From the IMG/VR virus record IMGVR_UViG_3300006114_000017, positions 1 to 45,771 of that record: a stretch of DNA of 45,771 bases, one strand, 5' to 3'. Of the stretch, positions 6,883 to 45,771 are shown one piece after another. Each line of letters starts with the position of its first letter. The first letter of the stretch is position 1. Made by a program: the position numbers and the translations under genes. The notes below the pieces were generated by a model, which saw nothing but the letters and a program-made list of their open reading frames with translations, made no database searches and was not told the DNA's origin. The stretch comes from a virus.

Positions 6883-7592
6883 GATTGCTCCTCGCTAGTT
6901 TCTTCGTTTTTATTTTGTGCATCAATCTCTGCGGTGCCCTTGAGCAGGTCCCACATTCTTGTGGTACCATCCATGGCTGCATTCATTGAGTCATCTTGAA
7001 GAGCTCCAGGATTCATACCCTTTGCACTCTTCTTTTTAAGCTTCTTCTTATTCTTTTCGATCTTTTGTGATGCTGGACTTAGGAAATTACGCTTGATGTT
7101 TTTTCCTACCTCAGGATCTATACCCAGGAACTTGGGTCTTTTAAATCCTAAAGCTCCAGCAATTTCGTGTCCGCAGGCAGGATTTTCACAAGAACCTGAC
7201 AAATCGCCCTTTTTCATCGAGTCATTAACGAATGTACGCTGCTTACAACGAGGACATTCAGCCTTACCACTTGATGTACCGCTAAGGTCGAGACCTTCAA
7301 AGTCTGGTGAAACAATGTCTACAAAAGACAAGCTTCTGTAGGCAGCTTTAGCATTAGGGTTCTGCTCTGCAAGACTCTGCTGCTGCTTTACAACCTGTTG
7401 GATGCCCATCGCATCTTGCCATTCTTGAATAGCTTCTTGTACCCGAGGGTCAATATAGCTACAGTCTGGACAAATGCCATCTCTGTAACCATTACCTTGA
7501 CACTGCGGGCAATCACCAAGAGGTGAAATGGATACCCTGATTACTTCCAGTGCATACTTCTTAATATCGCTAGATACCTTGAGGACAGGCAT
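6879..7592 (-). CDS. Zinc-ribbon protein (CPQCQ...CPDC and CPRC...C..C motifs) with a Lys-rich C-terminal half
   Basis: The ORF-track start at 7622 is a TTG that overlaps the upstream gene. The in-frame ATG at 7592 lies immediately after the upstream stop, so I adjusted the start. Cys motifs are read from the translation. Confidence 0.4.
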   Translation of the reverse strand: MPVLKVSSDIKKYALEVIRVSISPLGDCPQCQGNGYRDGICPDCSYIDPRVQEAIQEWQDAMGIQQVVKQQQSLAEQNPNAKAAYRSLSFVDIVSPDFEGLDLSGTSSGKAECPRCKQRTFVNDSMKKGDLSGSCENPACGHEIAGALGFKRPKFLGIDPEVGKNIKRNFLSPASQKIEKNKKKLKKKSAKGMNPGALQDDSMNAAMDGTTRMWDLLKGTAEIDAQNKNEETSEEQS

Positions 7593-25230: not shown

Positions 25231-25314
25231 TGGTCGATGGGGAGAGATTCGAACTCCCGTACCCGAAGGATCTGGTTTACAGCCAGACGCGATTGGCCAC
25301 TCCGCCACCCATCG
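25231..25314 (-). tRNA. tRNA-Tyr (anticodon GTA), type II with a long variable arm. CCA is encoded.
   Basis: Hand-folded cloverleaf: acceptor CGATGGG/CCCATCG, 3-bp D-stem, anticodon stem TCTGG/CCAGA with loop CTGTAAA, long variable arm, T-arm GGGAG-TTCGAAT-CTCTC. Confidence 0.7.
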
Positions 25315-25319
25315 ATTTG

Positions 25320-25390
25320 CTGAGGGAGAAGGACTCGAACCTTCAACAAAAGCTCCAAAGGCTCCCGTGTTGCCATTACACCATCCCTCA
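25320..25390 (-). tRNA. tRNA-Gln (anticodon TTG)
   Basis: Acceptor TGAGGGA/TCCCTCA, anticodon loop CTTTGGA, T-arm GAAGG-TTCGAGT-CCTTC. The anticodon stem has two G-U pairs. Confidence 0.6.
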
Positions 25391-25412
25391 ATGTTTATTG
25401 CATGGCATGCAG

Positions 25413-25499
25413 CGGAATGAGTAGGATTCGAACCTACGGAGGCTTTGATACCTCGCCGGTTTAGCAAACCGGTGCTTTCGACCACTCAGCCATCATTCC
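25413..25499 (-). tRNA. tRNA-Ser (anticodon GCT), type II with a long variable arm
   Basis: Acceptor GGAATGA/TCATTCC, anticodon stem CCGGT/ACCGG with loop TTGCTAA, long variable arm, T-arm GTAGG-TTCGAAT-CCTAC. Confidence 0.65.
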
Positions 25500-25504
25500 T
25501 TATG

Positions 25505-25576
25505 CTCCCAGGGTAGGGATCGAACCTACGACCGAGCGATTAACAGTCGCTTGCTCTGCCGCTGAGCTACCTGGGA
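25505..25576 (-). tRNA. tRNA-Asn (anticodon GTT)
   Basis: Acceptor TCCCAGG/CCTGGGA, D-loop AGCTCAGCGGCAGAGC, anticodon stem AGCGA/TCGCT with loop CTGTTAA, T-arm GTAGG-TTCGATCCC. Confidence 0.7.
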
Positions 25577-29335: not shown

Positions 29336-29901
29336 TAATTGGCCTTTCCAGATAGATTGCAAATTAGAATTTTTTTATCTTCATCGTAATCAAACTCACA
29401 TGCGTTGTCATACTCTTTAATATAGTTAATTAATTTTTGCTTTGTAGTTTCTTCATCACCAAAATCAAGAGCCATACCACTAGAAGAATCACCAAGCAGA
29501 TCAATATCATCAATCAGAATAGTGTGAGCTTTGCGAGGGCGAGCAAAGATTACGTTTAACTCATCCATCAAAGGAACTGCTGGGTGTTCTACATTCGGGT
29601 CACCGCTTGCGCTGTGAGCATCGAGCCAGAAATCTAGCGGGACATCATAAGGCTCAATCATCTCTGATAATTTTTCTTTTGAGTCGCCTAGAAATAACAC
29701 TACTCTGTTGTCATTATCAAACTTGCTACAACAATTATCGTAGAAAGATTTATTGAACTCAACAGTTATAACCTTTTCATAACCAAGACCAAGTGCTATT
29801 TCTACTGTATAGCCATGTTGTGTACCAGTTTCTACAAAGATATTATTTCTCTTATATTTAGAGAACATCAATGTCATTGCTTCTGTGCTTCTATCTGCCA
29901 T
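29335..29901 (-). CDS. Putative class I SAM-dependent methyltransferase (188 aa). Sugar O-methyltransferase is a candidate function.
   Basis: Gly-rich motif-I-like VETGTQHGYTVEIA is followed by an acidic residue at the end of beta-2 (EKVITVEF). No SIS motif is present, so it is not GmhA. Family assignment is tentative. Confidence 0.3.
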   Translation of the reverse strand: MADRSTEAMTLMFSKYKRNNIFVETGTQHGYTVEIALGLGYEKVITVEFNKSFYDNCCSKFDNDNRVVLFLGDSKEKLSEMIEPYDVPLDFWLDAHSASGDPNVEHPAVPLMDELNVIFARPRKAHTILIDDIDLLGDSSSGMALDFGDEETTKQKLINYIKEYDNACEFDYDEDKKILICNLSGKAN

Positions 29902-30911
29902 TATTCCATCTCAATCATTATTCTACCGGCAATGCCGCTTCTAAGTGTATCAAATGCTTCATTTACTTCGTCAAGTTTATATCTGTGAGTAATGAACTCA
30001 TCAATATAAAGCTTCCCAGCCTTCTCGAGCTTAACATAACGCAAGATATCGTTAGAAGGATCTGTCTTGCCACCCTGGGTAGCCTTGATACTAAGACCAT
30101 TACCATTAAAGAAGCTGAGTGCATTGACGATTTCAAGTGACGTTCCTGGCTTGGGTTGACCCACAAGAATCATTCGGCCATTGTTAGATAGATAGCCAAA
30201 GCTCTTCTTAATAACATCGACGTTTCCAGTCGTATCAATAACAACGTCTACTTTACCTTCAAACTCTGTTTCTGAAGTGTTGTAAAAGAAGTCAGCACCA
30301 GCCATGAATGAAAGGTCGCGCTTGCTTTCATTGTTGTCAATAGCAACAATTGGGCTAAGGCTACGCATAGCTGCACCTTGGATGAGGTTAAGCCCTACAC
30401 CACCCGTACCGACAACTGCAACGCTTTCACCAAACTTAAAATCGCACTCATTGTCGATAATACCTAGTGCGGTAGTCAAACTGCATCCAAGGAGCGCAGC
30501 GAGGTCATTAGGGGTCTCTGAAGGGACTGTAGTGAGTCGGTTCTCTGACACGATAGCCCACTGAGCAAGAGTATTTACCTTGCCACTACTAAAAGTCTTG
30601 TCACCAAGGGTGTACTGAGGAAACGCAGCATCGATACCAGTACCTGGTCGCCAGTGCATAACAACCTTGTCACCTACTTTAACAGTGGTTACTCCAGGGC
30701 CAATGTCTTCTACAATGCCACAACCCTCATGACCCATAAGGTGAGGAAGGAACTTGCCATTACCCTTGTTGCCATTGATCTCGTGTAGTTGTGAGCCACA
30801 GATACCGCTGACAAGGACACGAACCTGTACTTGACCCACTTGGAGCTCAGTAAGGCCAACATCTTCAATAGAAAGAGGAGCGTTGAGCTCTTTGAGAACG
30901 GCAGCCTTCAT
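29901..30911 (-). CDS. Zinc-dependent medium-chain alcohol/polyol dehydrogenase (MDR family)
   Basis: GHEGCG catalytic-zinc motif, GxGxxG NAD-binding motif (VVGTGGVGL), and the ~335 aa length typical of threonine/sorbitol dehydrogenase-like MDRs. Confidence 0.65.
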   Translation of the reverse strand: MKAAVLKELNAPLSIEDVGLTELQVGQVQVRVLVSGICGSQLHEINGNKGNGKFLPHLMGHEGCGIVEDIGPGVTTVKVGDKVVMHWRPGTGIDAAFPQYTLGDKTFSSGKVNTLAQWAIVSENRLTTVPSETPNDLAALLGCSLTTALGIIDNECDFKFGESVAVVGTGGVGLNLIQGAAMRSLSPIVAIDNNESKRDLSFMAGADFFYNTSETEFEGKVDVVIDTTGNVDVIKKSFGYLSNNGRMILVGQPKPGTSLEIVNALSFFNGNGLSIKATQGGKTDPSNDILRYVKLEKAGKLYIDEFITHRYKLDEVNEAFDTLRSGIAGRIMIEME

Positions 30912-31759: not shown

Positions 31760-31761
31760 AG

Positions 31762-31835
31762 CGACCTTGATGGGACTCGAACCCACGACCCCCACCGTGA
31801 CAGGGTGGTGCTCTAACCAACTGAGCTACAAGGCC
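31762..31835 (-). tRNA. tRNA-Asp (anticodon GTC)
   Basis: 5'-GGCCTTGTAGCTCAGTTGGTTAGAGCACCACCCTGTCACGGTGGGGGTCGTGGGTTCGAGTCCCATCAAGGTCG. Anticodon stem CCACC/GGTGG with loop CTGTCAC. T-arm GTGGG-TTCGAGT-CCCAT. Confidence 0.7.
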
Positions 31836-37443: not shown

Positions 37444-38724
37444 TTAGAACCTAAAGAACTTTTCGAGAACATCAACGGGGAGACCGATAGATGAAGTTCT
37501 TGCAGCAGGTGGGTTCGTTGGGTCTTTTGCCCAAGCTGCTCTAGAAGCAACATCTGCATTGTTTTTAGCTTTGTTGTAGTTCATGCCAGTTCCAGGAGTC
37601 GCTATAGCTTTTCCATGTGCTTCTGCTGCATCCATGTGTGCGAAGTAAGCTTCTCTGTGATCAGGGTTGTTACCATGGAAAGTATCAGCACCATGAAACT
37701 CTGGAGAACCATCGGAGTTTGTTCTTCCTGTCCATGGAGTGTTACCCTGCAACTTGTTAGCAGCATTGAGGTGATTATCACGCAAAGTTGCATGATAGTT
37801 ATTGGTATCATCCTTTTGGGAGTCTTTACGATCCATGAACATGTGTGCAGCATCATACATACCGGCTTGCTTGGATGCAGTGGCGTGACCAAAACCATCA
37901 GTCAGCTCAAGAGGACCACGATCAGCTTCGCCAGGTGTCATATCGTGTGAACGAGGAATTAAGTTGCTATTTGGTTTAATGTCATACAAGCTTTGACCTT
38001 CGCTCTGCTGAGGGGTCTTGTTGTAGAACTTGTATTGTGTGTAACCGTTGTAGTAGTCCTTGCTCAAGAGGGCAAGATCCTCGTCCATTGGCTTACCGGC
38101 TTGTGCATCGCCGTAGCCTTGGTAGTAAAGCTCACTGTCGTTAGCTTCTTTGAACATAGCGTAGAAAGCACCAGCGGCACCCATCTTGGCTTCTTCCTTA
38201 ACGATGTCACGCCCAGCATCAAGGTCGCCAGCAGTAGGGCCTTCTACTGTTGTAAGGCTCTCACCCGAGAAGTTATTTTCGCCAATGCCGTGGTCATTAG
38301 CAGGCTGGTTGCAACCACAATTTGTGCATGCAATGCGTGTTCCTGGGAAGTATGTCTTTTCGCAGTGATTACAGAATGGCTCACCATTCTCCATCACGTA
38401 TGCAATTCTTGCATTCATGCTCATGTTTGCTCCAATAATTGTTGATAGCGATCCTGGAGATACGCTAGAAAGCCCTTCATTGCTTACAACTGGTGGTTGC
38501 CCCTCGAGATCAATTGTATCCTTAGGCTCATCGCCCAAAGCAGTCAATCTCGTAGAGTTTTCGTCTTCGTTACCAATGTCTGCAAATCTAAAGTGGCCAA
38601 CAGTACCGACTTGGCTTTGTCCTGGAAGGCCAAACCCTGCATCGTCTTCTTCGGTAGCGTCTTCAATGCCTCGTAGCGAAGCATCGTCTCCGTAATTACC
38701 GTTATCCTGCGTAGCGTATCTCAT
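37444..38724 (-). CDS. Hypothetical protein (~426 aa) with a CNHC...CTNCGC cluster. Rich in Gly/Asp/Asn/Tyr.
   Basis: First codon at 38727 is TTG. The ATG at 38724 was taken as the start. Confidence 0.45.
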   Translation of the reverse strand: MRYATQDNGNYGDDASLRGIEDATEEDDAGFGLPGQSQVGTVGHFRFADIGNEDENSTRLTALGDEPKDTIDLEGQPPVVSNEGLSSVSPGSLSTIIGANMSMNARIAYVMENGEPFCNHCEKTYFPGTRIACTNCGCNQPANDHGIGENNFSGESLTTVEGPTAGDLDAGRDIVKEEAKMGAAGAFYAMFKEANDSELYYQGYGDAQAGKPMDEDLALLSKDYYNGYTQYKFYNKTPQQSEGQSLYDIKPNSNLIPRSHDMTPGEADRGPLELTDGFGHATASKQAGMYDAAHMFMDRKDSQKDDTNNYHATLRDNHLNAANKLQGNTPWTGRTNSDGSPEFHGADTFHGNNPDHREAYFAHMDAAEAHGKAIATPGTGMNYNKAKNNADVASRAAWAKDPTNPPAARTSSIGLPVDVLEKFFRF

Positions 38725-38759
38725 CAATGACTAGTGCGCCTTGGGGGCTATTTTAACTC

Positions 38760-39839
38760 TTATTCCCAGCTGGTTGGTTTGTCATTGTTAGTTGAATTGA
38801 AACGATCTTCATTCAACAAATCAATTAATCTATTGCTGCTACCAGTGATTGGTCGAGCTGGCGTTGGGAAGTTAGATATAGTTTGTGGGAAATTAAGCTC
38901 AAGGTTAATTCCTGCTCCAGGACCAGATGACCCTTTTTCTGGCGTTTGCTTTGTAGGCATTGGTTCTTGACCAGTTTCAAGCTTAGTTTTCTGTTGTGGT
39001 GGGTTACTAGTCTCTTGCTCACTCTTAGTAGAAGTTTCTTCTTCAAGAGAAGGTTCTGGCATAGCTTCTGTTTTATCACCAATTGTTTTAGGAGCTGGCT
39101 GCCAAGTTGTGGGAGATGGTTGTGGTGTGCTAGGAGGAGTCTTTGATGGCTTACCAGGAACAGTGAAAGGTGGAACTGTGATTGGCTTAGTAGGAGCCAA
39201 TGGGTGAGTCTCGAGAGGCATGATGCTACCAACTACGGGGTTAGCAGGGCTTGCAAAGCTCTGTCCACCACCAGAATCTGGCGTATTGTTGATATCATTG
39301 CTATTGTCGCCATTTTCATTACCGCTTGAGTTGCTACTAGGCAAGTTCTTCAATGCATCGCTAAGGCCACCACCTTCTGCACCTGCAGCGGCCTCTCCAG
39401 CGCCAGCGACTGCTTCTCCAGCACCAAGAAGCTCTGGGATAGCAAGAAGAGGACCAGCAGTCACAATTGTGCTTGCTGTGACCATGCGAAGTTCCTTAGC
39501 AGCGAACCCCTTACCAGCTTCTGACTGGTAAACTTGGTTATCTGTCAATGCATAAGGAATAACGTTAACAGTTGCGTGCGCTTTGCGCAGCATTTCTGTT
39601 GCAATGCCTTGGTTTCGGTATTCTGGCTCGACGTAAACACCATCCATGATGTAGTTGCCACTAGCTTGCTTTTCAGCAGTGAAATAACCGATTCTTTCGT
39701 CTCCAACCATTGCTTCAACAAGAAGACCAGAGAACGTGCCACCAGTCTTGTATTGCATTGGGCCAACGTTAGCAACAATTCGAACCTTGTCACCTTGTTC
39801 TTCAAGGATCTCATTAAGTCTTGGTGGGATAGTAGCCAT
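38760..39839 (-). CDS. N-terminal GNAT acetyltransferase-like domain fused to a long Pro/Thr/Ser/Gln-rich (mucin-like) low-complexity tail (359 aa)
   Basis: VYVEPEYRNQGIATEMLRKA matches the GNAT acetyl-CoA-binding motif A (Q/RxxGxG/A). The tail reads ...PTKPITVPPFTVPGKPSKTPPSTPQPSPTTWQPAPKT... Confidence 0.4.
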   Translation of the reverse strand: MATIPPRLNEILEEQGDKVRIVANVGPMQYKTGGTFSGLLVEAMVGDERIGYFTAEKQASGNYIMDGVYVEPEYRNQGIATEMLRKAHATVNVIPYALTDNQVYQSEAGKGFAAKELRMVTASTIVTAGPLLAIPELLGAGEAVAGAGEAAAGAEGGGLSDALKNLPSSNSSGNENGDNSNDINNTPDSGGGQSFASPANPVVGSIMPLETHPLAPTKPITVPPFTVPGKPSKTPPSTPQPSPTTWQPAPKTIGDKTEAMPEPSLEEETSTKSEQETSNPPQQKTKLETGQEPMPTKQTPEKGSSGPGAGINLELNFPQTISNFPTPARPITGSSNRLIDLLNEDRFNSTNNDKPTSWE

Positions 39840-40594
39840 TATAGTTTTCCTAGGTCAGTAGTGAGGTCTTCAAGGCGCATATCGCCATATTGACCCTTTT
39901 CAACAATCTCTGGAGTGATGAGAGCCCAGCTCTCTTCCATGTAGCTTTGCAGCCATCTCCACGTTACCTTCTGCACTTTACCCCAGGTAATACATTCAGC
40001 GTAGTCCTTGTCGTAACCTACGAGGATGACACAGTGGCCACCTTCGATCTGATTGTCAGCAGGAGTGCCTGTAAGGTCCCATGGCTGGTTGTCAAGGAAT
40101 TGCTGCTGGAAGGTGACTGGGAGCTTTACACCAATGTATACAAGCCCATATGAGGCAATTACGCTACGGAGCTCATCAAGGTCAGCATGGTCAGTAGGGG
40201 CGAACGCAGCAAGCTTTGTGTTGAACAAGCCGTTGGTCTGCCAGTACTTTAGTAGGTCCGCCTCGACCGCTCCAGCATCTTGTCCATTCGTATAATTGAG
40301 ATAACTTTGCTCGACTTCGGTGTCAGAAGGGAATCCTTCTGTAAGTTGTAAGAAAGCAGCGTTAGCCATTCTGGCGTGAACAATACCAGCAAAAGTACAA
40401 TCCCCATATTTATCATTTCCTAACATTCCCCAATTATCTACGTTTGGCACTGCTACGCTCTCTGGTGCAGCTGGCAACGGGTTGCCCTGATAGAAAGCAA
40501 GCATGTGCAACCCAGCAGGGCGCTTAGGATCTAGCTTACCTAATTTACCAACAATACGATCAGTCATTATTATCTCCCATAAACATCTTTCCAT
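39839..40594 (-). CDS. Papain-like (C1-like) cysteine protease (251 aa)
   Basis: Catalytic Cys context KYGDCTFAGIVHA. The His block GGHCVILVGYDKDYAECITWGKV is strikingly like papain-family D-HAVxxVGYG...I.NSWG. Confidence 0.45.
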   Translation of the reverse strand: MERCLWEIIMTDRIVGKLGKLDPKRPAGLHMLAFYQGNPLPAAPESVAVPNVDNWGMLGNDKYGDCTFAGIVHARMANAAFLQLTEGFPSDTEVEQSYLNYTNGQDAGAVEADLLKYWQTNGLFNTKLAAFAPTDHADLDELRSVIASYGLVYIGVKLPVTFQQQFLDNQPWDLTGTPADNQIEGGHCVILVGYDKDYAECITWGKVQKVTWRWLQSYMEESWALITPEIVEKGQYGDMRLEDLTTDLGKL

Positions 40595-40938
40595 TGACTA
40601 AAAGTCAAACCAGTTTTGCCTGCAAGGAACGAGTGAGTGTTGCAATATGGCCTTGGCACTGAAGAATCAGACCAATGCATGTATTTTGCTTCGTACTTCT
40701 TACCTTGGCAGTCGCCATGAGCACATGCAGCCATACCCTTGCGGTCTACGTAAGGTGCTTTCCTAGTTTTCTTAGGAGGCTCTGGCTGTGGGTTCTCTGC
40801 TAAGTACTTCTGCGTGTTCTCGCAATCGGTAGTGTCTTTGCACCTACCGCTGCTAACGATTGTGTGGGTGCCATCATCTGATGCACCACAGAGCTGACAT
40901 TGGTCAGGACGAGCAGCGTAACGTTCTGACCAAGACAT
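40570..40938 (-). CDS. Small Cys-rich protein (122 aa). N-terminus MSWSERYAAR...
   Basis: ORF track. Motifs CQLCG, CKDTTDC and CAHGDC. Confidence 0.4.
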   Translation of the reverse strand: MSWSERYAARPDQCQLCGASDDGTHTIVSSGRCKDTTDCENTQKYLAENPQPEPPKKTRKAPYVDRKGMAACAHGDCQGKKYEAKYMHWSDSSVPRPYCNTHSFLAGKTGLTFSQWKDVYGR

Positions 40939-41414
40939 TAGAAGTATTTCTGTCGTTCTGACGGAGTCATCTTGCCTGATTTTGCTACAGCAGCATCGTG
41001 GCTCAGCGGTGTTGGGTTGGGGTTATGACGTCCATTGACTATTGTTTCTCCAACTGATCTAAGCAAGCTATAGTGATTGGGAATAACATTTTTGTTGAGA
41101 GCGTCAATCGCTTCATCATGTGTAGCTAGCAGTCTGGGCTCTAAAGCTTCTGGGCCACCAAGCCATGGATCATTGCGTGCACGTGCACTAACATATAAAC
41201 TGATATTGTGACCCTGGGTATAGGCATGCATCATTTCGTCTTCGGTAATACCGTGTCGCCTAGCATCATCAACATGCTTCTTTTGAATAAGCTTGGGGTT
41301 GCCTGAGTTGGCGTGATCAATCAGCTTCTCAAAGTAGTGTGGATCACCATAACCAAAGGTATCTTCAGCTGCGTATCTTCTTTTCCAATTCATTAATCTT
41401 CTCCAAGGATCCAA
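40938..41414 (-). CDS. Hypothetical protein (158 aa). Contains ...MNWKRRYAAED... near its N-terminus.
   Basis: ORF track. ATGA overlap with the downstream gene. Confidence 0.4.
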   Translation of the reverse strand: MDPWRRLMNWKRRYAAEDTFGYGDPHYFEKLIDHANSGNPKLIQKKHVDDARRHGITEDEMMHAYTQGHNISLYVSARARNDPWLGGPEALEPRLLATHDEAIDALNKNVIPNHYSLLRSVGETIVNGRHNPNPTPLSHDAAVAKSGKMTPSERQKYF

Positions 41415-41584
41415 TCGGCTACTTCTTTACTGCGTGAGTGTTCTTGTCCAATAGATGGCCCTTCTTGTCTACTCAGTTCAGAAATAATGTGTTTTTCTGC
41501 TTCAGTAGTGTTAGGGCATTGCAGTTTAGGCCAGCCATGGCATGAACAGCTTTCTGCTGCGTATCTTTTAGACCAATTACTCAT
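41393..41584 (-). CDS. Small Cys protein (63 aa). N-terminus MSNWSKRYAAESCSCH...
   Basis: ORF track. Confidence 0.35.
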   Translation of the reverse strand: MSNWSKRYAAESCSCHGWPKLQCPNTTEAEKHIISELSRQEGPSIGQEHSRSKEVADWILGED

Positions 41585-42003
41585 TTGATGAGTCCTCTCA
41601 CGTATTTTGCTGCCTCAAAGTCACTGTAAGCTGTGACGTGTTTGCCACCATGACCTCTGTGGTGGAAAAGGCATAGCCATTCCAGGTTTGTTGCGCTCTC
41701 TACCCATGCACCAACGGTGTCTGGGTCGCTAACGCCGGGGTAATCGACTTCGAGCCACTTAAGATCGACGCCATTCTGCAATGAGAACTCAATATGAGTG
41801 TGGTGAAGCTCCAAAGGGTGCTCAGAGTCGCACTCACTGAAGTCATTGCGGTGTTCACCGATAGCACATTTAGCTGTTGCCTTCGTTTTCTCACGGAAAT
41901 GGTGAAAATCGACGTAATGTGGGTCATCTTCACGCTCTGGGTGAGGTGGATAGTGAACGGTGTAATGATGAGTGATGTTCTGGTCGTGTTCTTCGACGGT
42001 CAT
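41581..42003 (-). CDS. His-rich protein, possibly HNH/His-Me-finger nuclease-like (140 aa)
   Basis: Pattern C-x10-C ... LELHHTHIEF ... N ... LEWLCLFHHRGH resembles the HNH layout of a Cys pair, catalytic HH, Asn and a CxxH pair. Weak. Confidence 0.3.
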   Translation of the reverse strand: MTVEEHDQNITHHYTVHYPPHPEREDDPHYVDFHHFREKTKATAKCAIGEHRNDFSECDSEHPLELHHTHIEFSLQNGVDLKWLEVDYPGVSDPDTVGAWVESATNLEWLCLFHHRGHGGKHVTAYSDFEAAKYVRGLIK

Positions 42004-42395
42004 TAGTCTTTTTCCCTTCTATCTTGCTGAAGGTAGTCAATAACTTCGTCTAAACTGCCAAAAACGCGTATATCATCTTCATATTCGTCGTTATCTAGGT
42101 CAAAATCGTCTTCATCTGACGAAAAAAGCTCTTCCATGATCATCTGGAAAGCAGAAAAGGTGATTTCTCTTGAATATTCTACAAAAACACCGTCATGCTG
42201 ACAGTATTCACTTACGTTAATACGATAAGTGTGGTCTTCATCGTCATCTTTTGGCTTATCGATGGAGAAATCATCTGAAAGAGAGGAAATCTGGGCAATA
42301 CTCTCCTTAAACCGGGAGACATATGCACTTTTCTCTGTAGTATCACTGTACTTTGCTATGTTCTTGCAAGTTTCACAGTCACAGTTGTTTGACAT
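42003..42395 (-). CDS. Very acidic small protein (130 aa; N-terminal CDCETC, C-terminal Asp/Glu runs)
   Basis: ATG at 42393-42395, with an AGGAA SD and a near-consensus sigma70-like promoter upstream. Confidence 0.45.
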   Translation of the reverse strand: MSNNCDCETCKNIAKYSDTTEKSAYVSRFKESIAQISSLSDDFSIDKPKDDDEDHTYRINVSEYCQHDGVFVEYSREITFSAFQMIMEELFSSDEDDFDLDNDEYEDDIRVFGSLDEVIDYLQQDRREKD

Positions 42396-42412
42396 GTTTT
42401 CCTTAGTTATAT

Positions 42413-42441
42413 ATATAAGAGGATTTTTTAAATTTTGTCAA
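42413..42441 (-). promoter_or_regulatory. Sigma70-like promoter on the minus strand: TTGACA -N17- TTATAT, then an AGGAA SD, driving the acidic-protein gene
   Basis: The -35 hexamer is the reverse complement of plus 42436-42441 and the -10 of plus 42413-42418. It lies in an AT-rich 72-nt intergenic gap. Confidence 0.35.
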
Positions 42442-42467
42442 TAGATTTTAAGATAAAACTTTAAAAT

Positions 42468-43583
42468 TTATTCGCCAGAGTAGCTATCATCAGCGTGAAC
42501 AGCTCTATTTATAGCTGTTGAAGGACTGTAAAGGTGAGAAACACCCTCTCCACCTCTCGCACGATGACGTACTCTTGGTGCAACTACAGCTGCATGGTTG
42601 TCTTCGTCCTGTCTAAAGTTGACATGGTGGTTGATAATGGTCTGTTCAGCCTTCGTACCATACAAAACACGGTGGTGTGAACGTCTTCCGACCTTACCAA
42701 ACTCTCCAGCTTCCTTAGAAACGGGGAAACCAGCGAAATAAGCGGCTCTAATCTTGGGATCTTGAGTTCTTTTGGCTGCTTCTTCGTGGTGTTGCATGTC
42801 CCAAAGCTGGTTTGTGGGGTGAGTACTGTCATTTACAACGCAGTATGGGCAGAAACACTTAACAAAACGGGCAGTTTTACCCTGATCGATGACATTTTGC
42901 TCAACAGGATCGATAGCATCGTGCGTATTGCACATGTTATTGATGGTGTGGTTGAATGCGTGGTGCACTGCAAGGTCACCATGGGTGTGATCACTGACAG
43001 TTTTCATGGCATCTCGGTAGAACTTAGGGTCCTTGATGCCATTACGCTTACCCTCGTTGAATGCCATGATCGTTTCAATGTGCGATTGGCCCAAAGCTGA
43101 GAGTGGGTGGACCATCAAACGCTCACCAGTCTTTGCATTCACGTGTTCACCGGCACGGAAAGCACGATCATCCAGGTGGCCCTCTTCGCTGGGAGCAATC
43201 ATCATAGTAGGTTGATGGATACCCTGCTCGAGCTTGTAAGGCTTACCAGTGGTCTTGTTGCGAACAGCAACGGTCATGTAGTCACTTGCGGTTTTAACGT
43301 TGGCAAGCTGCGAGTGAGCGCGACTGTGATACCAGTCGCCCTTTTTGCTTTGCTTCAAGCCAAACAAACGCACTGCGTCAGGATTGGGCTCTTCGCCCTC
43401 ACCAAGGCTACCTATGTAGTGATTAGCGGCTTTCTCAGCAGCATGAGGCACATGATAGTACTCAGGGTCTTCCTTGTGGGTGGCGTAGCCAGTACCCTCT
43501 TGGAAGATAAGCGTCATAGCGTTGGCAGGTCCGCCAGTCTTGAATTGCTTATCGTGTTTTGCAGCTTCTCTGCTGTTGAACAT
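42468..43583 (-). CDS. Hypothetical His-rich protein (371 aa)
   Basis: ATG at 43581-43583. An AGGAG SD lies 8 nt upstream. Confidence 0.45.
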   Translation of the reverse strand: MFNSREAAKHDKQFKTGGPANAMTLIFQEGTGYATHKEDPEYYHVPHAAEKAANHYIGSLGEGEEPNPDAVRLFGLKQSKKGDWYHSRAHSQLANVKTASDYMTVAVRNKTTGKPYKLEQGIHQPTMMIAPSEEGHLDDRAFRAGEHVNAKTGERLMVHPLSALGQSHIETIMAFNEGKRNGIKDPKFYRDAMKTVSDHTHGDLAVHHAFNHTINNMCNTHDAIDPVEQNVIDQGKTARFVKCFCPYCVVNDSTHPTNQLWDMQHHEEAAKRTQDPKIRAAYFAGFPVSKEAGEFGKVGRRSHHRVLYGTKAEQTIINHHVNFRQDEDNHAAVVAPRVRHRARGGEGVSHLYSPSTAINRAVHADDSYSGE

Positions 43584-43689
43584 AAGTTGTACTCCTAGTT
43601 AAGTTAAAACAGGCACCGCGCGTCACCGGCCCTAGACCCGATTCCGAATTTTCTTTTACCCTTATGTTATAAGGGGTTTAGACTCTTAG

Positions 43690-44355
43690 TTAGCAACCAC
43701 CACGGCAAATCCATCCAGTACCGTATTCTTGACTTGGGTCCCAAACAATGTCTTGGGTGTTTCCACAGTTGTAGCAGTAGCGAGAATTGCCTGGGATGTG
43801 CCCATCCATAGGCTTATTTTCCCCCATTGAGTTATCGTTGGCGTAACGCTCAGCGAAAGAAGCACTCTTAGGCTTAAGTGGTGGCACATCGCGAACGTGC
43901 TTGTAGACTTGTGGGTCGTACTTAGTGTCTGGGTCTTGCATCATTTTCACTCTTGAATTAAGAGGAACGTTAGGATTTGTTACTTCTTTGCTAATGTTTG
44001 TCTGAGGAGCCTTGCTCTTTGTGCTTGTCTGCTCTGTGGGGAAATGCTTTTCCATAAGATCACTATAGTGTTCCACAAGGCTCTTTTGGTTAACGCCTGG
44101 TTGTGTGCGCTTCAGTACTTCTTGGTGCATCTCATTAATTTTGCCAACGCCTTGCTGGAACTTCCCAATGCTGTCCATAACGTCATTGTGGTTATTACGG
44201 ACTTCATCAACCATTCTTGCATTAGGGACGTTAGGCTTGTTCTTTTCGTATTCATCACGCGTTTGGTATCTATTCTCAGCGATTCTAATCGCCGCCATTT
44301 TTGCATTGCCAAGTGAGTTCTGGTAGCTCTTTGACCAGTCGTTGAATTGTGCCAT
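43690..44355 (-). CDS. Hypothetical protein (221 aa) with a C-terminal zinc ribbon (CYNCGNT...CRGGC). N-terminus MAQFNDWSKSYQNS. It is the first gene of the minus-strand unit.
   Basis: ORF track. Confidence 0.45.
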   Translation of the reverse strand: MAQFNDWSKSYQNSLGNAKMAAIRIAENRYQTRDEYEKNKPNVPNARMVDEVRNNHNDVMDSIGKFQQGVGKINEMHQEVLKRTQPGVNQKSLVEHYSDLMEKHFPTEQTSTKSKAPQTNISKEVTNPNVPLNSRVKMMQDPDTKYDPQVYKHVRDVPPLKPKSASFAERYANDNSMGENKPMDGHIPGNSRYCYNCGNTQDIVWDPSQEYGTGWICRGGC

Positions 44356-44908
44356 GGTGTAGCCCTTTGTAGATAGTAGAACGATTGCTATCCCCTATAC
44401 CAAGAACTATATGTATTTACATTATTCTCTCTTTTTTTCTATCTACTTTAGTGCACCTAGTATTTCATACGTGGCCAAGGCCTCCGGCATTTTTAATTCT
44501 TACCAGTACGATCTCAACGCCTGCTCTATCGAATACCCCATAGGGCTGCCCGCCATTTTTTAAAGGCGTTTCTATACGCTCCCATTGGGACCCCTATTGG
44601 CGAGCCTTACAGAGCCTTTTAGGCCCCTCTCAAGGCACTCCTCTAAAACCCTTTAGTTCTGGAAATGGCAAAACCTACCATCCTATTTCACGCCTTGGAT
44701 TGCGTGTTAGTTACACGCTAGCAAAAGATTATGAACTTCTTTGCGTCCTTGGGCACAATGTCCAAGTGAGGCTGAGAACTCATGGTCCTAGCAATCACCT
44801 GTATGTTGCTGAACTACAGCACCGTACAGCTGTGTGCGCAAACGTACTACTCAGTAGTGCGCGAACGTACGCAGCAACCCAACACCTATGCATTAGAAAG
44901 AGATTAAA
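44356..44908. promoter_or_regulatory. A 553-bp non-coding strand-switch region carrying short repeats and a dyad element
   Basis: No ORF of 60 aa or more. It separates minus-strand genes (ending at 44355) from plus-strand genes (starting at 44909). It contains CCCATAGGG / CCCATTGGG / CCCCTATTGG motifs and TGCGCAAACGTAC-TACTCAGTAG-TGCGCGAACGTAC. Confidence 0.4.
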
Positions 44909-45094
44909 ATGAAGCGTTTTCAGCTGATTTCCCTGCTCCTTGGTAGCTTTGCGTTCACGTTCGCAGTATCGTTCGTGAACACAATGATCTCGTGGTACAC
45001 ACCCATGGGGCAGGCACAGACCGTACTCACGGTCTCGTTGTCGTTCACCTTCGTGGTGTTCGTGGCTGCAGTCCTGTACACAGCCAAGAAGTAG
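44909..45094 (+). CDS. Small membrane protein with two predicted TM helices (61 aa)
   Basis: ATG at 44909 with a purine-rich AAGAGA upstream. Hydrophobic segments LISLLLGSFAFTFAVSFV and VLTVSLSFTFVVFVAAVLY. Confidence 0.4.
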   Translation: MKRFQLISLLLGSFAFTFAVSFVNTMISWYTPMGQAQTVLTVSLSFTFVVFVAAVLYTAKK

Positions 45095-45176
45095 TACGCA
45101 ATGCCGAAATCATCACGTCGGGAGATGTTGTGGTCGTCGTAGGGTGATGCCTACGGCCTGATGATGGCAGTCAGCT

Positions 45177-45224
45177 AACTAAACCAGTCCTGAGGAGGAC
45201 ACTATGAAGGAAGTAACAACGATC
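45177..45224 (+). repeat. Copy 1 of an exact 48-bp direct repeat: AACTAAACCAGTCCTGAGGAGGACACT + ATG + AAGGAAGTAACAACGATC. It covers the SD and the first 7 codons.
   Basis: Read directly from the sequence. The second copy is at 45625..45672. Confidence 0.8.
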
Positions 45225-45572
45225 GACGCTGCTAAGGCTTTGGTTGAGCACTACGCTGCTGCGGCTGAGCTCATGACTGCTGAGGCTAAGGCTGAGTACG
45301 AGGCTGCTTTGGCTGCGTACGAGGCTGTTGAGGCTAAGTACGAGGCTAAGCAGGACGCTGCTTGGGCTAAGCGTGACGCTGCTAAGGCTGAGTACTACGC
45401 TGCTCAGGCTGAGTTCAAGGCTGCCGAGGCTGAGTTCGACGATGCTTGGGCTGAGTACCACGCTGCTTTGGCTAAGTACGACGCTGCTTTGTCTAAGCCT
45501 GAGGTCAAGGCTGCTTGGGCTAAGTTCTACGCTGCTATGGCTGAGCTCAACGCTGCTCAGGCTGAGCAGTAA
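45204..45572 (+). CDS. Ala-rich acidic repeat protein (122 aa) with heptad spacing of aromatic residues
   Basis: Strong GAGGAGG SD 7 nt upstream. Extreme codon bias (Ala=GCT, Glu=GAG, Lys=AAG, Tyr=TAC). Repeats of the form AEYEAAL/AAYEAVE/AKYEAKQ. The antisense ORFs listed here are shadows. Confidence 0.55.
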   Translation: MKEVTTIDAAKALVEHYAAAAELMTAEAKAEYEAALAAYEAVEAKYEAKQDAAWAKRDAAKAEYYAAQAEFKAAEAEFDDAWAEYHAALAKYDAALSKPEVKAAWAKFYAAMAELNAAQAEQ

Positions 45573-45624
45573 CAGCTCGGTTCACAAGGGGTATGAGCTC
45601 CACCCCACCCAACGGGCTCAACCC

Positions 45625-45672
45625 AACTAAACCAGTCCTGAGGAGGACACTATGAAGGAAGTAACAACGATC
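45625..45672 (+). repeat. Copy 2 of the 48-bp direct repeat
   Basis: Read directly from the sequence. Confidence 0.8.
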
Positions 45673-45771
45673 AGCGGTTCCGTCTACCTCATCAATGAAG
45701 ATGAGCAGATGTGGTGCCGGAAGTCAACTGCCCCTGTGCGCAAGTACGATAACGGGGAGTACGTCGACACC
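45652..45771 (+). CDS. Hypothetical protein, N-terminal fragment (MKEVTTISGSVYLINEDEQMWCRK...). Continues beyond the window end.
   Basis: Same SD and first 7 codons as the previous gene. Open to the window end. Confidence 0.45.
   Translation, partial: MKEVTTISGSVYLINEDEQMWCRKSTAPVRKYDNGEYVDT

What the first reader, a model, noticed from the sequence alone, without database searches (positions are those of the whole stretch)
45204..45572. Highly expressed-looking Ala-rich acidic heptad-repeat protein at the start of the plus-strand block, a candidate anti-restriction or mimic protein
The 122-aa protein is about 45% Ala with a net charge near -13. Aromatic residues (Y/W/F) recur at 7-residue spacing, at positions 32, 39, 46, 54, then 64/65, 71, 78, 85 and 92. 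This gives AEYEAAL-type heptads, so probably a continuous amphipathic helix or coiled coil. Its codon usage is extreme (GCT/GAG/AAG/TAC). It has a perfect GAGGAGG SD and is the second gene after the divergent control region. That matches the position and composition of early acidic DNA-mimic proteins such as T7 Ocr (gene 0.3). Alternatives are a type I antifreeze-like or apolipoprotein-like helix, or a scaffold.
Basis: partly seen in the sequence, partly recalled or inferred. Interest (0 to 1): 0.55.

Follow-up and report, generated by a model that had tools for sequence, protein, structure and literature searches.

The report
Ribozyme-led alanine-rich repeat phage protein
This is a real but orphan phage gene for a rod-like, alanine- and tyrosine-rich helical repeat protein that sits behind a self-cleaving hammerhead ribozyme in a recombining early-gene cassette; its function is unknown, and nothing ties it specifically to the T7 Ocr type of DNA mimic.

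Summary
The ORF at 45204-45572 is real. The 7-residue aromatic spacing, the GAGGAGG SD and the extreme codon use are confirmed.

New findings:
- The gene is built from about 13 copies of a 21-nt unit.
- It belongs to an orphan family (30-182 aa, all MKEVTT[IY]...A[EK]Q) found only in a small group of metagenomic phages.
- Copy number, order, repeat number and chimeras differ between close relatives.
- A type II hammerhead ribozyme (45102-45176) lies directly upstream.
- A perfect 48-nt repeat (SD hairpin, ATG and 7 codons) is shared with the next, unrelated gene.
- Synonymous sites are more conserved than non-synonymous ones (pN>pS in 21/21 pairs; GCT is about 95% of Ala codons).

AlphaFold gives three helices, one of 71 residues. 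There is no Pfam, PHROG, NCBIfam or fold match. The only sequence echo in the PDB is the Ala-rich A-region of streptococcal AgI/II, and it is not significant.

Charge density is modest (pI 4.6) and not conserved (net -2 to -18), which weakens the Ocr-like DNA-mimic reading.

Best guess, at low confidence: an abundant, fast-evolving early helical rod that self-associates and binds a host factor.

The parts
44356..44908 (.). Divergent non-coding gap of 553 bp between the last minus-strand gene (43690-44355) and the plus-strand block. It is presumed to be a control region.
   Evidence: ORF map. The sigma-70 scan found no convincing promoter, 1 site against 1.0 expected. GC and AT skew change sign at the equivalent point in relative L007.
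44909..45094 (+). 61-aa ORF with two hydrophobic segments. It is the first clear gene of the + block and lies upstream of the ribozyme.
   Evidence: A 61-aa gene also neighbours the 35-aa family member P0013, there in the opposite order; its identity with this ORF was not checked. No family hit.
45102..45176 (+). Type II hammerhead ribozyme (long stem III variant). Predicted self-cleavage is after C45135.
   Evidence: Rfam RF02276 scores 31.5 bits (gathering score 37), E = 0.001-0.014. Homologous copies in relatives score 38.3 and 37.5 bits, above the gathering score. The core motifs GCCGAA and CUGAYGA and the H17 site are present in 8 of 8 copies. Stems I and III are 100% paired with 5 doubly changed pairs. 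The covariation score is 0.417 against 0.166 +/- 0.037 in shuffles and at most 0.057 when slid. Cleavage site.
45177..45224 (+). Copy 1 of a perfect 48-nt direct repeat. It is a shared translation-initiation module: SD hairpin, ATG and the first 7 codons (MKEVTTI).
   Evidence: 2 copies with 0 mismatches, 0 expected by chance.
45187..45200 (+). Hairpin GUCCU-GAGG-AGGAC that holds the SD (GAGGAGG at 45192-45198).
   Evidence: The stem is kept and the loop varies (GAGG or AAGG) in relatives.
45204..45572 (+). The 122-aa Ala/aromatic heptad-repeat protein. The heptad consensus is [E/D/K]-A-A-[K/E/W/L]-A-[E/K]-[Y/L/F].
   Evidence: AlphaFold2 gives pLDDT 87.8 with helices at 2-21, 26-96 and 99-121. 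The identical protein is on at least 22 contigs.
45285..45566 (+). Degenerate 21-nt tandem array of about 13 units (71-80% matches) that encodes the heptads.
   Evidence: TRF and the repeat families with 21-nt spacing.
45573..45624 (+). Conserved 3' element 'B' (..ACAAGGGGTATGAGCTCCACCCCACCCAACGGGCTC..). It follows the Ala-rich genes checked in the window, L008 and L026.
   Evidence: The RNA fold is modest, z = -2.2. No Rfam hit.
45625..45672 (+). Copy 2 of the 48-nt repeat, heading the next gene.
45652..45771 (+). First 40 codons of an unrelated 86-aa gene, cut by the window end. It shares MKEVTTI with the Ala-rich gene.
   Evidence: Full gene in L001 at 7058-7318. Relatives P0001 and P0002.

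Best explanation
Shown:
- The ORF is a genuine gene of an orphan family of tandem heptad-repeat proteins. Members run from 30 to 182 aa, with N-terminus MKEVTT[IY] (MKEATTI in one paralogue), C-terminus A[EK]Q, about 37% Ala and 11-14% aromatic residues.
- In the window, L007/L008, L018 and L023 the family gene sits in a cassette made of a type II hammerhead ribozyme, a conserved SD-hairpin/start module, the ORF and (where checked) a conserved 3' element. A second paralogue in L008 and the copies in L019, L020 and L026 have element-B-like sequence upstream instead of the ribozyme.
- The cassette recombines. Position, copy number (1-2), repeat number and chimeras differ between closely related co-occurring phages.

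Inferred mechanism:
1. The early polycistronic transcript cuts itself after C45135.
2. This leaves an mRNA with a 5'-OH and a 5'-terminal hairpin, carrying the Ala-rich gene and the 86-aa gene up to the next ribozyme.
3. That mRNA is translated efficiently from a strong, shared initiation module.
4. The product is a stiff, intrinsically stable alpha-helical rod. It has a Tyr/Leu/Phe(/Trp) stripe, an all-Ala stripe on the opposite face and charged flanks.
5. The rod self-associates as a coiled coil or alacoil-like bundle. It acts stoichiometrically by binding and neutralising a host factor early in infection.
6. Rapid diversification of length and surface through 21-nt repeat recombination reflects an arms race.

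The target is unknown. The protein is not a member of the Ocr family.
For: Gene and fold:
- Gene and composition.
- Helical model: pLDDT 87.8, with a 71-residue helix.
- Heptad consensus from 77 units.

Family and rearrangements:
- Family members and their lengths.
- Position is shuffled relative to the 86-aa gene.
- One member lies among replication and 7-deazaguanine genes.
- A 35-aa member is again the first + gene after the divergent gap.
- The 182-aa variant is a chimera of the window type and a second paralogue.
- The 30-aa variant is an exact repeat-to-repeat deletion of the 100-aa one.

Expression signals:
- Hammerhead.
- Published precedent for hammerheads that flank single phage genes and process polycistronic RNA, including ardA: PMC3088659.
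- 48-nt perfect repeat.
- Copies of the start module within one genome resemble each other more than their counterparts in the other genome.

Evolution:
- pN exceeds pS in 21 of 21 pairs (pN 0.06-0.30, pS 0.006-0.16).
- Backbone genes of the same phage pair show pS 0.57-0.72 and pN 0.12-0.13.
- No stop codon occurs in any member although 49 of 122 codons are one step from a stop.
Against: - There is no experimental or homology evidence for any function or partner.
- Members of 30 and 35 aa show that most of the rod can be lost. This fits weak constraint as well as it fits an arms race.
- pN>pS may come from misaligned repeats plus strong codon selection rather than from positive selection.
- The heptad 'a' position is hydrophobic in only about 30% of units, so a classical coiled coil would be weak.
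- The AlphaFold model is a monomer made without an alignment (pTM 0.54).
- Timing as an early gene is inferred from gene order only.
- The window's ribozyme copy scores below Rfam's gathering threshold, and cleavage has not been tested.
Confidence: 0.35

Rival explanations
1. It is a DNA-mimic anti-restriction or anti-nuclease protein, working like T7 Ocr, ArdA, lambda Gam or the T7 gp5.9 coiled coil. An acidic helical dimer would occupy the DNA-binding site of a host restriction enzyme or end-processing nuclease.
For: - It is early in the gene order, small and net acidic (pI 4.63).
- It is helical.
- Some members are much more acidic, with net -15 to -18.
- gp5.9 shows that a coiled coil can mimic DNA (PMC9836394).
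- ardA sits directly downstream of hammerheads in Agrobacterium and Legionella elements (PMC3088659).
- Fast evolution fits an anti-defence role.
Against: - No Ocr or ArdA family hit, and no Ocr, ArdA, Gam or gp5.9 fold among the 50 listed matches.
- The protein has 19% acidic but also 11% basic residues. That is about -0.6 net charge per heptad.
- The 98-aa paralogue is nearly neutral (net -2, pI 5.2), so charge is not the conserved feature.
- The conserved features are Ala and the aromatic stripe, which DNA mimicry does not need.
Confidence: 0.15
2. It is a self-assembling structural protein of the infected cell, such as a filament, bundle, condensate or scaffold. The opposed aromatic and Ala stripes would give two packing faces.
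For: - Two opposite, chemically distinct stripes.
- Very high predicted expression.
- Periodic sequence with no conserved site.
- Length is variable, as in rod or spacer proteins.
Against: - A 30-35 aa version could hardly build a lattice.
- The gene is not near the capsid or tail genes.
- No structural homologue was found.
Confidence: 0.12
3. The aromatic ladder binds a polyproline-II helix of a proline-rich partner, as the Ala-rich A-region of streptococcal antigen I/II wraps its P-region.
For: - The only PDB sequence that resembles the family is the AgI/II A-region (3iox_A). E = 2.6 for the 122-aa protein and 0.09 for the 182-aa variant, with shared motifs such as YEAA-AA and AKY.
- In that structure the helix binds PPII through aromatic-proline contacts (PMC3707005).
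Against: - The E-values are not significant, and the similarity may be purely compositional.
- No Pfam hit to any family reached the threshold.
- No proline-rich partner was found in the + block; the proline-rich stretches found lie on the minus strand and were not examined further.
- The protein is cytoplasmic, not a wall-anchored adhesin.
Confidence: 0.05
4. The protein has little or no function of its own. The ORF would then be an expandable 21-nt minisatellite riding in a strong expression cassette. Alternatively the selected feature is at the nucleic-acid level, such as an iteron-like array at two helical turns or an RNA element.
For: - Length ranges from 30 to 182 aa.
- Every repeat-mediated indel is in frame by construction.
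- Synonymous sites are more conserved than non-synonymous ones, and GCT is near-fixed in all members.
- The 21-bp period equals two turns of DNA.
- The array lies next to the strand-switch region, where the skews change sign.
Against: - The SD and ATG are strictly conserved.
- No member has a stop codon despite 20-30% non-synonymous divergence and 49 stop-adjacent codons.
- The amino-acid heptad pattern, rather than the nucleotide sequence of the units, is what is kept (units are 60-80% identical).
- The family also sits far from the divergent region in L026.
- The mRNA is not selected to be unstructured.
Confidence: 0.15

Closest known systems
Hammerhead-flanked genes in phages and prophages (type II hammerhead, Rfam RF02276; Perreault et al. 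2011, PMC3088659)
   Same: A type II hammerhead with a loop I/3'-tail pseudoknot lies in the intergenic space just upstream of a single small gene. Several copies punctuate one operon (three in L001). In published cases the gene downstream can be the anti-restriction gene ardA.
   Different: Here the ribozyme is fused to a conserved SD-hairpin/start-codon module that includes the first 6-7 codons, and the pair moves as a cassette. The window copy scores 31.5 bits, below the gathering score of 37. Cleavage is untested.
PeSL mobile regulatory cassettes of T4-type phages (Arbiol et al. 2010, PMC2839356)
   Same: A repeated regulatory motif bounds small ORFs of unknown function. It is the site of insertion, deletion and replacement between close relatives.
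   Different: PeSLs are early promoter plus stem-loop motifs. Here the repeat is a ribozyme plus a translation-initiation region, and the shared sequence extends into the coding region.
T7 gp5.9 and T7 Ocr (acidic helical DNA mimics; PMC9836394, PMC7064336)
   Same: Small, acidic, helical phage proteins. Ocr is an early gene product (from general knowledge of T7). gp5.9 is a coiled coil.
   Different: No sequence or fold similarity. Charge density is much lower (pI 4.63 against 4.0) and is not conserved across the family. The Ala/aromatic periodicity has no counterpart.
Alanine-rich A-region of streptococcal antigen I/II (PDB 3IOX)
   Same: An Ala-rich helix with Tyr every 7 residues and motifs such as YEAALAAY and AKYEA. 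It forms a very long single alpha-helix.
   Different: The match is not significant (E = 0.09-2.6). There is no P-region or V-region, and a signal peptide or wall anchor is not evident from the sequence. It is a cytoplasmic phage protein.
Alacoil / (EAAAK)n-type stable helices and type I antifreeze proteins (from general knowledge)
   Same: Ala-rich, salt-bridged, intrinsically stable helices. Alacoils have Ala at every seventh position.
   Different: Type I AFPs have an 11-residue Thr period, which is absent here (only 3 Thr, all N-terminal). These are structural classes, not homologous families.

Membership tests
T7 Ocr (gene 0.3) / ArdA anti-restriction DNA mimics | Sequence or profile similarity to the family | tested here: not met
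   The Pfam scan at E up to 1 returned only two sub-threshold chance hits (Mod_r, FGase). PHROGs and NCBIfam returned nothing.
T7 Ocr (gene 0.3) / ArdA anti-restriction DNA mimics | Exceptionally high, conserved negative charge density with few basic residues | tested here: not met
   The protein has 19% acidic and 11% basic residues, net -10 and pI 4.63. Family members range from net -2 (pI 5.2) to -18.
T7 Ocr (gene 0.3) / ArdA anti-restriction DNA mimics | Fold that mimics bent B-DNA as a dimer | tested here: inconclusive
   The monomer model has three helices. Foldseek against the PDB found nothing with E below 0.7, and no Ocr or ArdA among the 50 listed matches. An oligomer could not be modelled.
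T7 Ocr (gene 0.3) / ArdA anti-restriction DNA mimics | Blocks type I R-M enzymes | not testable with these tools
   This needs plating or biochemical assays.
T7 gp5.9-type coiled-coil DNA mimic | Parallel dimeric coiled coil displaying Asp/Glu; binds RecBCD | not testable with these tools
   Only the heptad pattern was tested. The 'a' position is hydrophobic in about 30% of units, and the surface positions are a mix of E, D and K.
Type II hammerhead ribozyme (RF02276), for the element at 45102-45176 | Conserved catalytic core (CUGANGA, GAAA, cleavable N-U-H) in the type II permutation | tested here: met
   GCCGAA...GUC|G...CUGAUGA in the window copy. The core is invariant in 8 of 8 copies, and H17 is C or A.
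Type II hammerhead ribozyme (RF02276), for the element at 45102-45176 | Stems I and III supported by covariation; loop I/3'-tail pseudoknot | tested here: met
   Cells are 100% paired, with 5 pairs changed on both sides. The score is 0.417 against 0.166 +/- 0.037 in shuffles (0 of 500 reach it) and at most 0.057 when slid. The UGAU/GUCA pseudoknot is possible but invariant.
Type II hammerhead ribozyme (RF02276), for the element at 45102-45176 | Score at or above Rfam's gathering threshold | tested here: inconclusive
   The window copy scores 31.5 bits against 37. Homologous copies in L018 score 38.3 and 37.5.
Type II hammerhead ribozyme (RF02276), for the element at 45102-45176 | Self-cleavage | not testable with these tools
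   This needs an in-vitro transcription assay.
Antigen I/II A-region (Ala-rich repeats) | Significant similarity to the A-repeats, with P-region, signal peptide and wall anchor | tested here: not met
   PDB phmmer gives E = 2.6 (0.09 for the 182-aa variant). No Pfam hit. The protein has a single Pro; no signal peptide or LPXTG motif is evident by eye in the sequence, though no predictor was run.
Type I antifreeze / exchangeable apolipoprotein helices | 11-residue (or 22-residue) periodicity | tested here: not met
   The period is 7. Ala pairs number 30 at lag 7 and 15 at lag 11; aromatic pairs number 6 at lag 7 and 2 at lag 11. The DNA period is 21 nt.
PeSL-like mobile regulatory cassette | Repeated regulatory motif at the borders of ORFs that are inserted, deleted or replaced between close relatives | tested here: met
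   The 48-nt repeat flanks the gene. Order and copy number differ between L001 and L008. The 86-aa gene is almost identical between phages whose backbone genes differ at pS 0.57-0.72. This is an analogy only; the motif itself is different.

The most novel reading that the evidence does not exclude
The family is a phage 'contingency' locus. It would be a periodic aromatic-ladder helical rod that mimics or clamps a periodic host polymer or filament, such as DNA, a polyproline-II segment or a coiled-coil protein. Its length and surface would be retuned at high frequency by 21-nt repeat recombination. Its expression would be insulated by a self-cleaving ribozyme and a portable start module. The near-fixed GCT codons would then reflect a second, nucleic-acid-level constraint on the same array.
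Probability: 0.12. Interest if true: 0.7.

Novelty: new variant of a known kind. Interest (0 to 1): 0.45.

Why it matters
If the protein proves to be an anti-defence or host-takeover factor, it would add a very simple, designable scaffold to that repertoire: a heptad rod whose length varies naturally.

Whatever the protein does, the locus is a compact natural example of three things working together:
- a hammerhead ribozyme that cuts an early phage operon into units;
- a translation-initiation module, reaching into the first codons, that is reused by unrelated genes and serves as a recombination site;
- a coding minisatellite whose synonymous sites are more conserved than its amino acids.

All three are testable with a short in-vitro transcript and a few expression constructs.

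Tried and rejected
Homology and structure searches that found nothing:
- DNA and tblastn searches of 50,697 phage records. The low-complexity filter probably masks the protein query.
- A HMMER single-sequence search of 5.8 billion proteins found nothing, not even the query itself, although the exact protein is in the collection. Composition correction probably hides it.
- IMG/VR scans with the protein, two neighbours and the start-module DNA found no relatives.
- Foldseek returned only generic helical hairpins, with E of 0.77 or higher.

Explanations for the GCT bias:
- An unstructured mRNA is rejected. The native MFE is -143.5 kcal/mol against -124.7 +/- 6.6 for synonymous resamples, and resampling Ala codons alone makes no difference.
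- Palindrome (restriction-site) avoidance is inconclusive. There are fewer 4-mer palindromes than in Ala-only resamples, but not than in all-codon resamples, and 6-mers are not depleted.

Other checks:
- No phage tRNA-Ala explains the codons. The window's tRNAs are Tyr, Gln, Ser, Asn and Asp.
- The 18-nt hammerhead pattern scan of 596 Gb of genomes gave 56 hits. My estimate puts that close to the chance expectation. The downstream ORFs were unrelated, so there is no clue to the host or to associated genes.
- The skew profile cannot separate a replication origin from the transcription strand switch.
- The antifreeze, apolipoprotein and capsid-scaffold readings are rejected on period and location.

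Full report
**Observation**

Window 45204-45572 (+) is an ATG ORF of 122 aa. Its composition is 36.9% Ala (45 residues), 23 acidic and 13 basic residues (net -10, pI 4.63), and 15 aromatic residues. '45' is the count of Ala residues, not the percentage.

Aromatic pairs at a spacing of 7 number 6, against 1.63 +/- 1.14 in shuffles (p = 0.0013). Ala pairs peak at lags 7 and 14.

GAGGAGG lies at 45192-45198, 5 nt before the ATG. Codon use is extreme: GCT 42/45, GAG 16/17, AAG 12/12, TAC 9/9. It exceeds even the major capsid gene, where GCT is 11/23 and GAG 12/24.

At the DNA level the gene is a degenerate 21-nt tandem array of about 13 units with 71-80% matches. Because of that array, two other frames are also open, so ORF length by itself proves nothing.

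**Setting**

The window is a linear piece of a phage genome.
- Portal, major head and virion protein genes lie on the minus strand.
- The portal is about 39% identical to those of Mycobacterium cluster C phages.
- There are five tRNAs.
- The minus-strand block ends at 44355. A 553-bp gap follows, then a plus-strand block that runs off the window.

Contig L001 is 100% identical to window 38595-45771 and extends 3 kb further. In relatives the + block continues into AAA+, DnaB, primase, exonuclease and nucleotide-metabolism genes. Calling it 'early/middle' is a reasonable inference, but it is not shown.

**What surrounds the gene**

- A perfect 48-nt direct repeat (45177-45224 = 45625-45672) covers an SD-containing hairpin (GUCCU-GAGG-AGGAC), the ATG and the first seven codons. 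It heads both the Ala-rich gene and the next gene, an unrelated 86-aa protein.
- Directly upstream, 45102-45176 matches the type II hammerhead ribozyme (RF02276) at 31.5 bits, E about 0.001-0.014. This is below the gathering score of 37. Homologous copies in relatives reach 38.3 and 37.5 bits.
- Eight copies share an invariant core (GCCGAA, CUGAYGA, H17 = C or A). Stems I and III covary: 100% of cells are paired and 5 pairs are changed on both sides. The score is 0.417 against 0.166 +/- 0.037 in shuffles and at most 0.057 when slid.
- Predicted cleavage is after C45135.
- L001 carries three such ribozymes in 3 kb. They would cut the operon into units, one of which is the Ala-rich gene plus the 86-aa gene.
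- This arrangement is known from prophages, including hammerheads directly upstream of ardA (PMC3088659).
- A conserved 3' element (45573-45624) follows the Ala-rich genes checked.

**Family**

Standard searches see nothing, probably because of composition filters. Searching metagenomes for the start-module DNA and using a family profile recovered members of 30, 35, 71, 72, 98, 100, 112, 112, 121, 122 and 182 aa.

All but one start MKEVTT[IY]; one paralogue starts MKEATTI. All end A[EK]Q. Ala is 33-38% and aromatics 11-14% in the members measured. Net charge runs from -2 to -18. The heptad consensus from 77 units is [E/D/K]-A-A-[K/E/W/L]-A-[E/K]-[Y/L/F]. On a helix this gives an aromatic/hydrophobic stripe, an all-Ala stripe on the opposite face and charged flanks.

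**Dynamics**

- In a related phage (L007-L016) the order is 86-aa gene, ribozyme, 98-aa member, 71-aa member. In the window it is ribozyme, 122-aa member, 86-aa gene.
- Another relative has a 35-aa member as the first + gene.
- Another has a 72-aa member among replication and 7-deazaguanine genes.
- The 30-aa form is an exact repeat-to-repeat deletion of the 100-aa form.
- The 182-aa form is a chimera of the window type with a second paralogue.
- Start modules within one genome are more alike than their counterparts between genomes.
- The 86-aa gene differs by 3 non-synonymous and 0 synonymous changes between phages whose backbone genes differ at pS 0.57-0.72. The cassettes are therefore exchanged.
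- This resembles the PeSL cassettes of T4-type phages (PMC2839356), but with a different boundary motif.

**Selection**

In all 21 pairwise comparisons pN (0.06-0.30) exceeds pS (0.006-0.16). Backbone genes show the usual pS >> pN. GCT is about 95% of Ala codons in every member measured, against 39-52% elsewhere.

No member has a stop codon, although 49 of 122 codons are one step from a stop. The reading frame is therefore maintained.

The synonymous conservation is not explained by a need for unstructured mRNA. Palindrome avoidance is inconclusive. Codon selection, recent expansion with diversifying selection, or a nucleic-acid constraint all remain open.

**Structure and comparisons**

AlphaFold2, run on the single sequence, gives pLDDT 87.8 and pTM 0.54, with helices at 2-21, 26-96 and 99-121. 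Foldseek against the PDB gives only generic helical matches, E of 0.77 or higher.

The one PDB sequence with any resemblance is the Ala-rich A-region of antigen I/II (3iox_A). E = 2.6 for the window protein and 0.09 for the 182-aa variant. That helix binds a polyproline-II helix through aromatic-proline contacts (PMC3707005). The match is not significant and serves only as a lead.

An unrelated protein family carries the same DAAWAKY-type arrays, of variable length, between conserved end domains. There they look like a spacer or stalk.

**Interpretation**

What is shown:
- a real gene of an orphan tandem-heptad family;
- a ribozyme-led, recombining cassette;
- rapid evolution by repeat recombination.

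What is inferred:
- high early expression from a self-processed mRNA;
- a stiff helical rod that self-associates and binds a host factor stoichiometrically.

The Ocr-type DNA-mimic reading is not excluded as a mechanism. Coiled-coil mimics exist (PMC9836394), and there is a precedent linking hammerheads to ardA. But membership of the Ocr or ArdA families fails. The charge is modest and not conserved, whereas the Ala and aromatic stripes are. I therefore rank that reading below the more general 'abundant early binder' model and give it about 0.15.

Rivals that remain open:
- a self-assembling structural role;
- PPII binding;
- a largely functionless or nucleic-acid-level repeat.

**Verdict**

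The more solid and more interesting result is the anatomy: hammerhead ribozyme, shared start module, hypervariable coding minisatellite. This is a new variant of known kinds (hammerhead-flanked phage genes, mobile regulatory cassettes) that carries a protein family with no known relatives.

Noticed in passing
window 45652-45771 (full gene in L001 7058-7318): The first 40 residues of the 86-aa neighbour hit Pfam Vault_4 (major vault protein repeat) at E = 5e-5, 23.9 bits against a cut-off of 22.9. Between two phage lineages whose backbone genes differ at pS 0.57-0.72, this gene differs by only 3 non-synonymous and 0 synonymous changes. That suggests very recent horizontal exchange.
   Followed up: partly
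L001 7323-7385 and 9190-9252; L007 10266-10340 and 11184-11246; L018 1691-1753 and 2093-2167; L023 842-916: Further type II hammerhead copies punctuate the + strand operon. Two copies (L001 7323 and 9190) carry a U15.1-A16.1 pair in place of the canonical A15.1-U16.1.
   Followed up: partly
L001 7724-7794; L007 12023-12093; L018 1458-1528: A tRNA lies inside the + block (Rfam 55-57 bits). ARAGORN calls it 'tRNA-???' with an odd anticodon loop, and in L018 calls a tRNA-His with anticodon ATG.
   Followed up: no
window 25231-25576 and 31761-31835 (minus strand): A cluster of four tRNAs (Tyr-GTA, Gln-TTG, Ser-GCT, Asn-GTT) and a separate tRNA-Asp-GTC. There is no tRNA-Ala, despite the GCT-rich gene.
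   Followed up: no
proteins P0003-P0006, P0011, P0014, P0016 (loci L027-L029): An unrelated, unannotated protein family carries the same DAAWAKY/DAARAKY heptad arrays, in variable numbers, between a conserved N-domain (..HLHHD..LEW..) and a C-terminal ..CPD..WNGKTIF motif. It lies among small overlapping phage-like genes.
   Followed up: partly
L026 1-16645: A related contig places a 72-aa family member among LuxC/LuxE-like, aminotransferase, PTPS (QueD), radical-SAM, GTP cyclohydrolase I, dCTP deaminase, Phage_Hfq, DnaB, UDG and primase genes. This suggests 7-deazaguanine-type DNA modification in this phage group.
   Followed up: no
L008 about 7000-7070 (upstream of the 86-aa gene): The sequence GGTTCGATCCCCTGGGTGGGCA looks like the T-arm and acceptor 3' half of a tRNA. 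It occupies the place where the window has the ribozyme and the Ala-rich cassette. ARAGORN, run on the homologous locus L007, did not call it.
   Followed up: no
window 44470-44570: Two short GC-rich motifs followed by T-runs (GGCCTCCGGCATTTTT and GGGCTGCCCGCCATTTTTT) lie in the divergent gap. Counterparts occur in L008. Their role is unknown.
   Followed up: no
window 29901-30911 (minus strand): A phage-borne zinc alcohol-dehydrogenase-superfamily gene (phrog_2640, E = 1e-89).
   Followed up: no
window 45594-45654: Element B contains an ATG preceded by AAGGGG. It opens a 20-codon frame whose TGA overlaps the ATG of the next gene (read from the sequence). In L008 the same frame is read through into a 68-aa ORF call. 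It is probably not a real gene.
   Followed up: no
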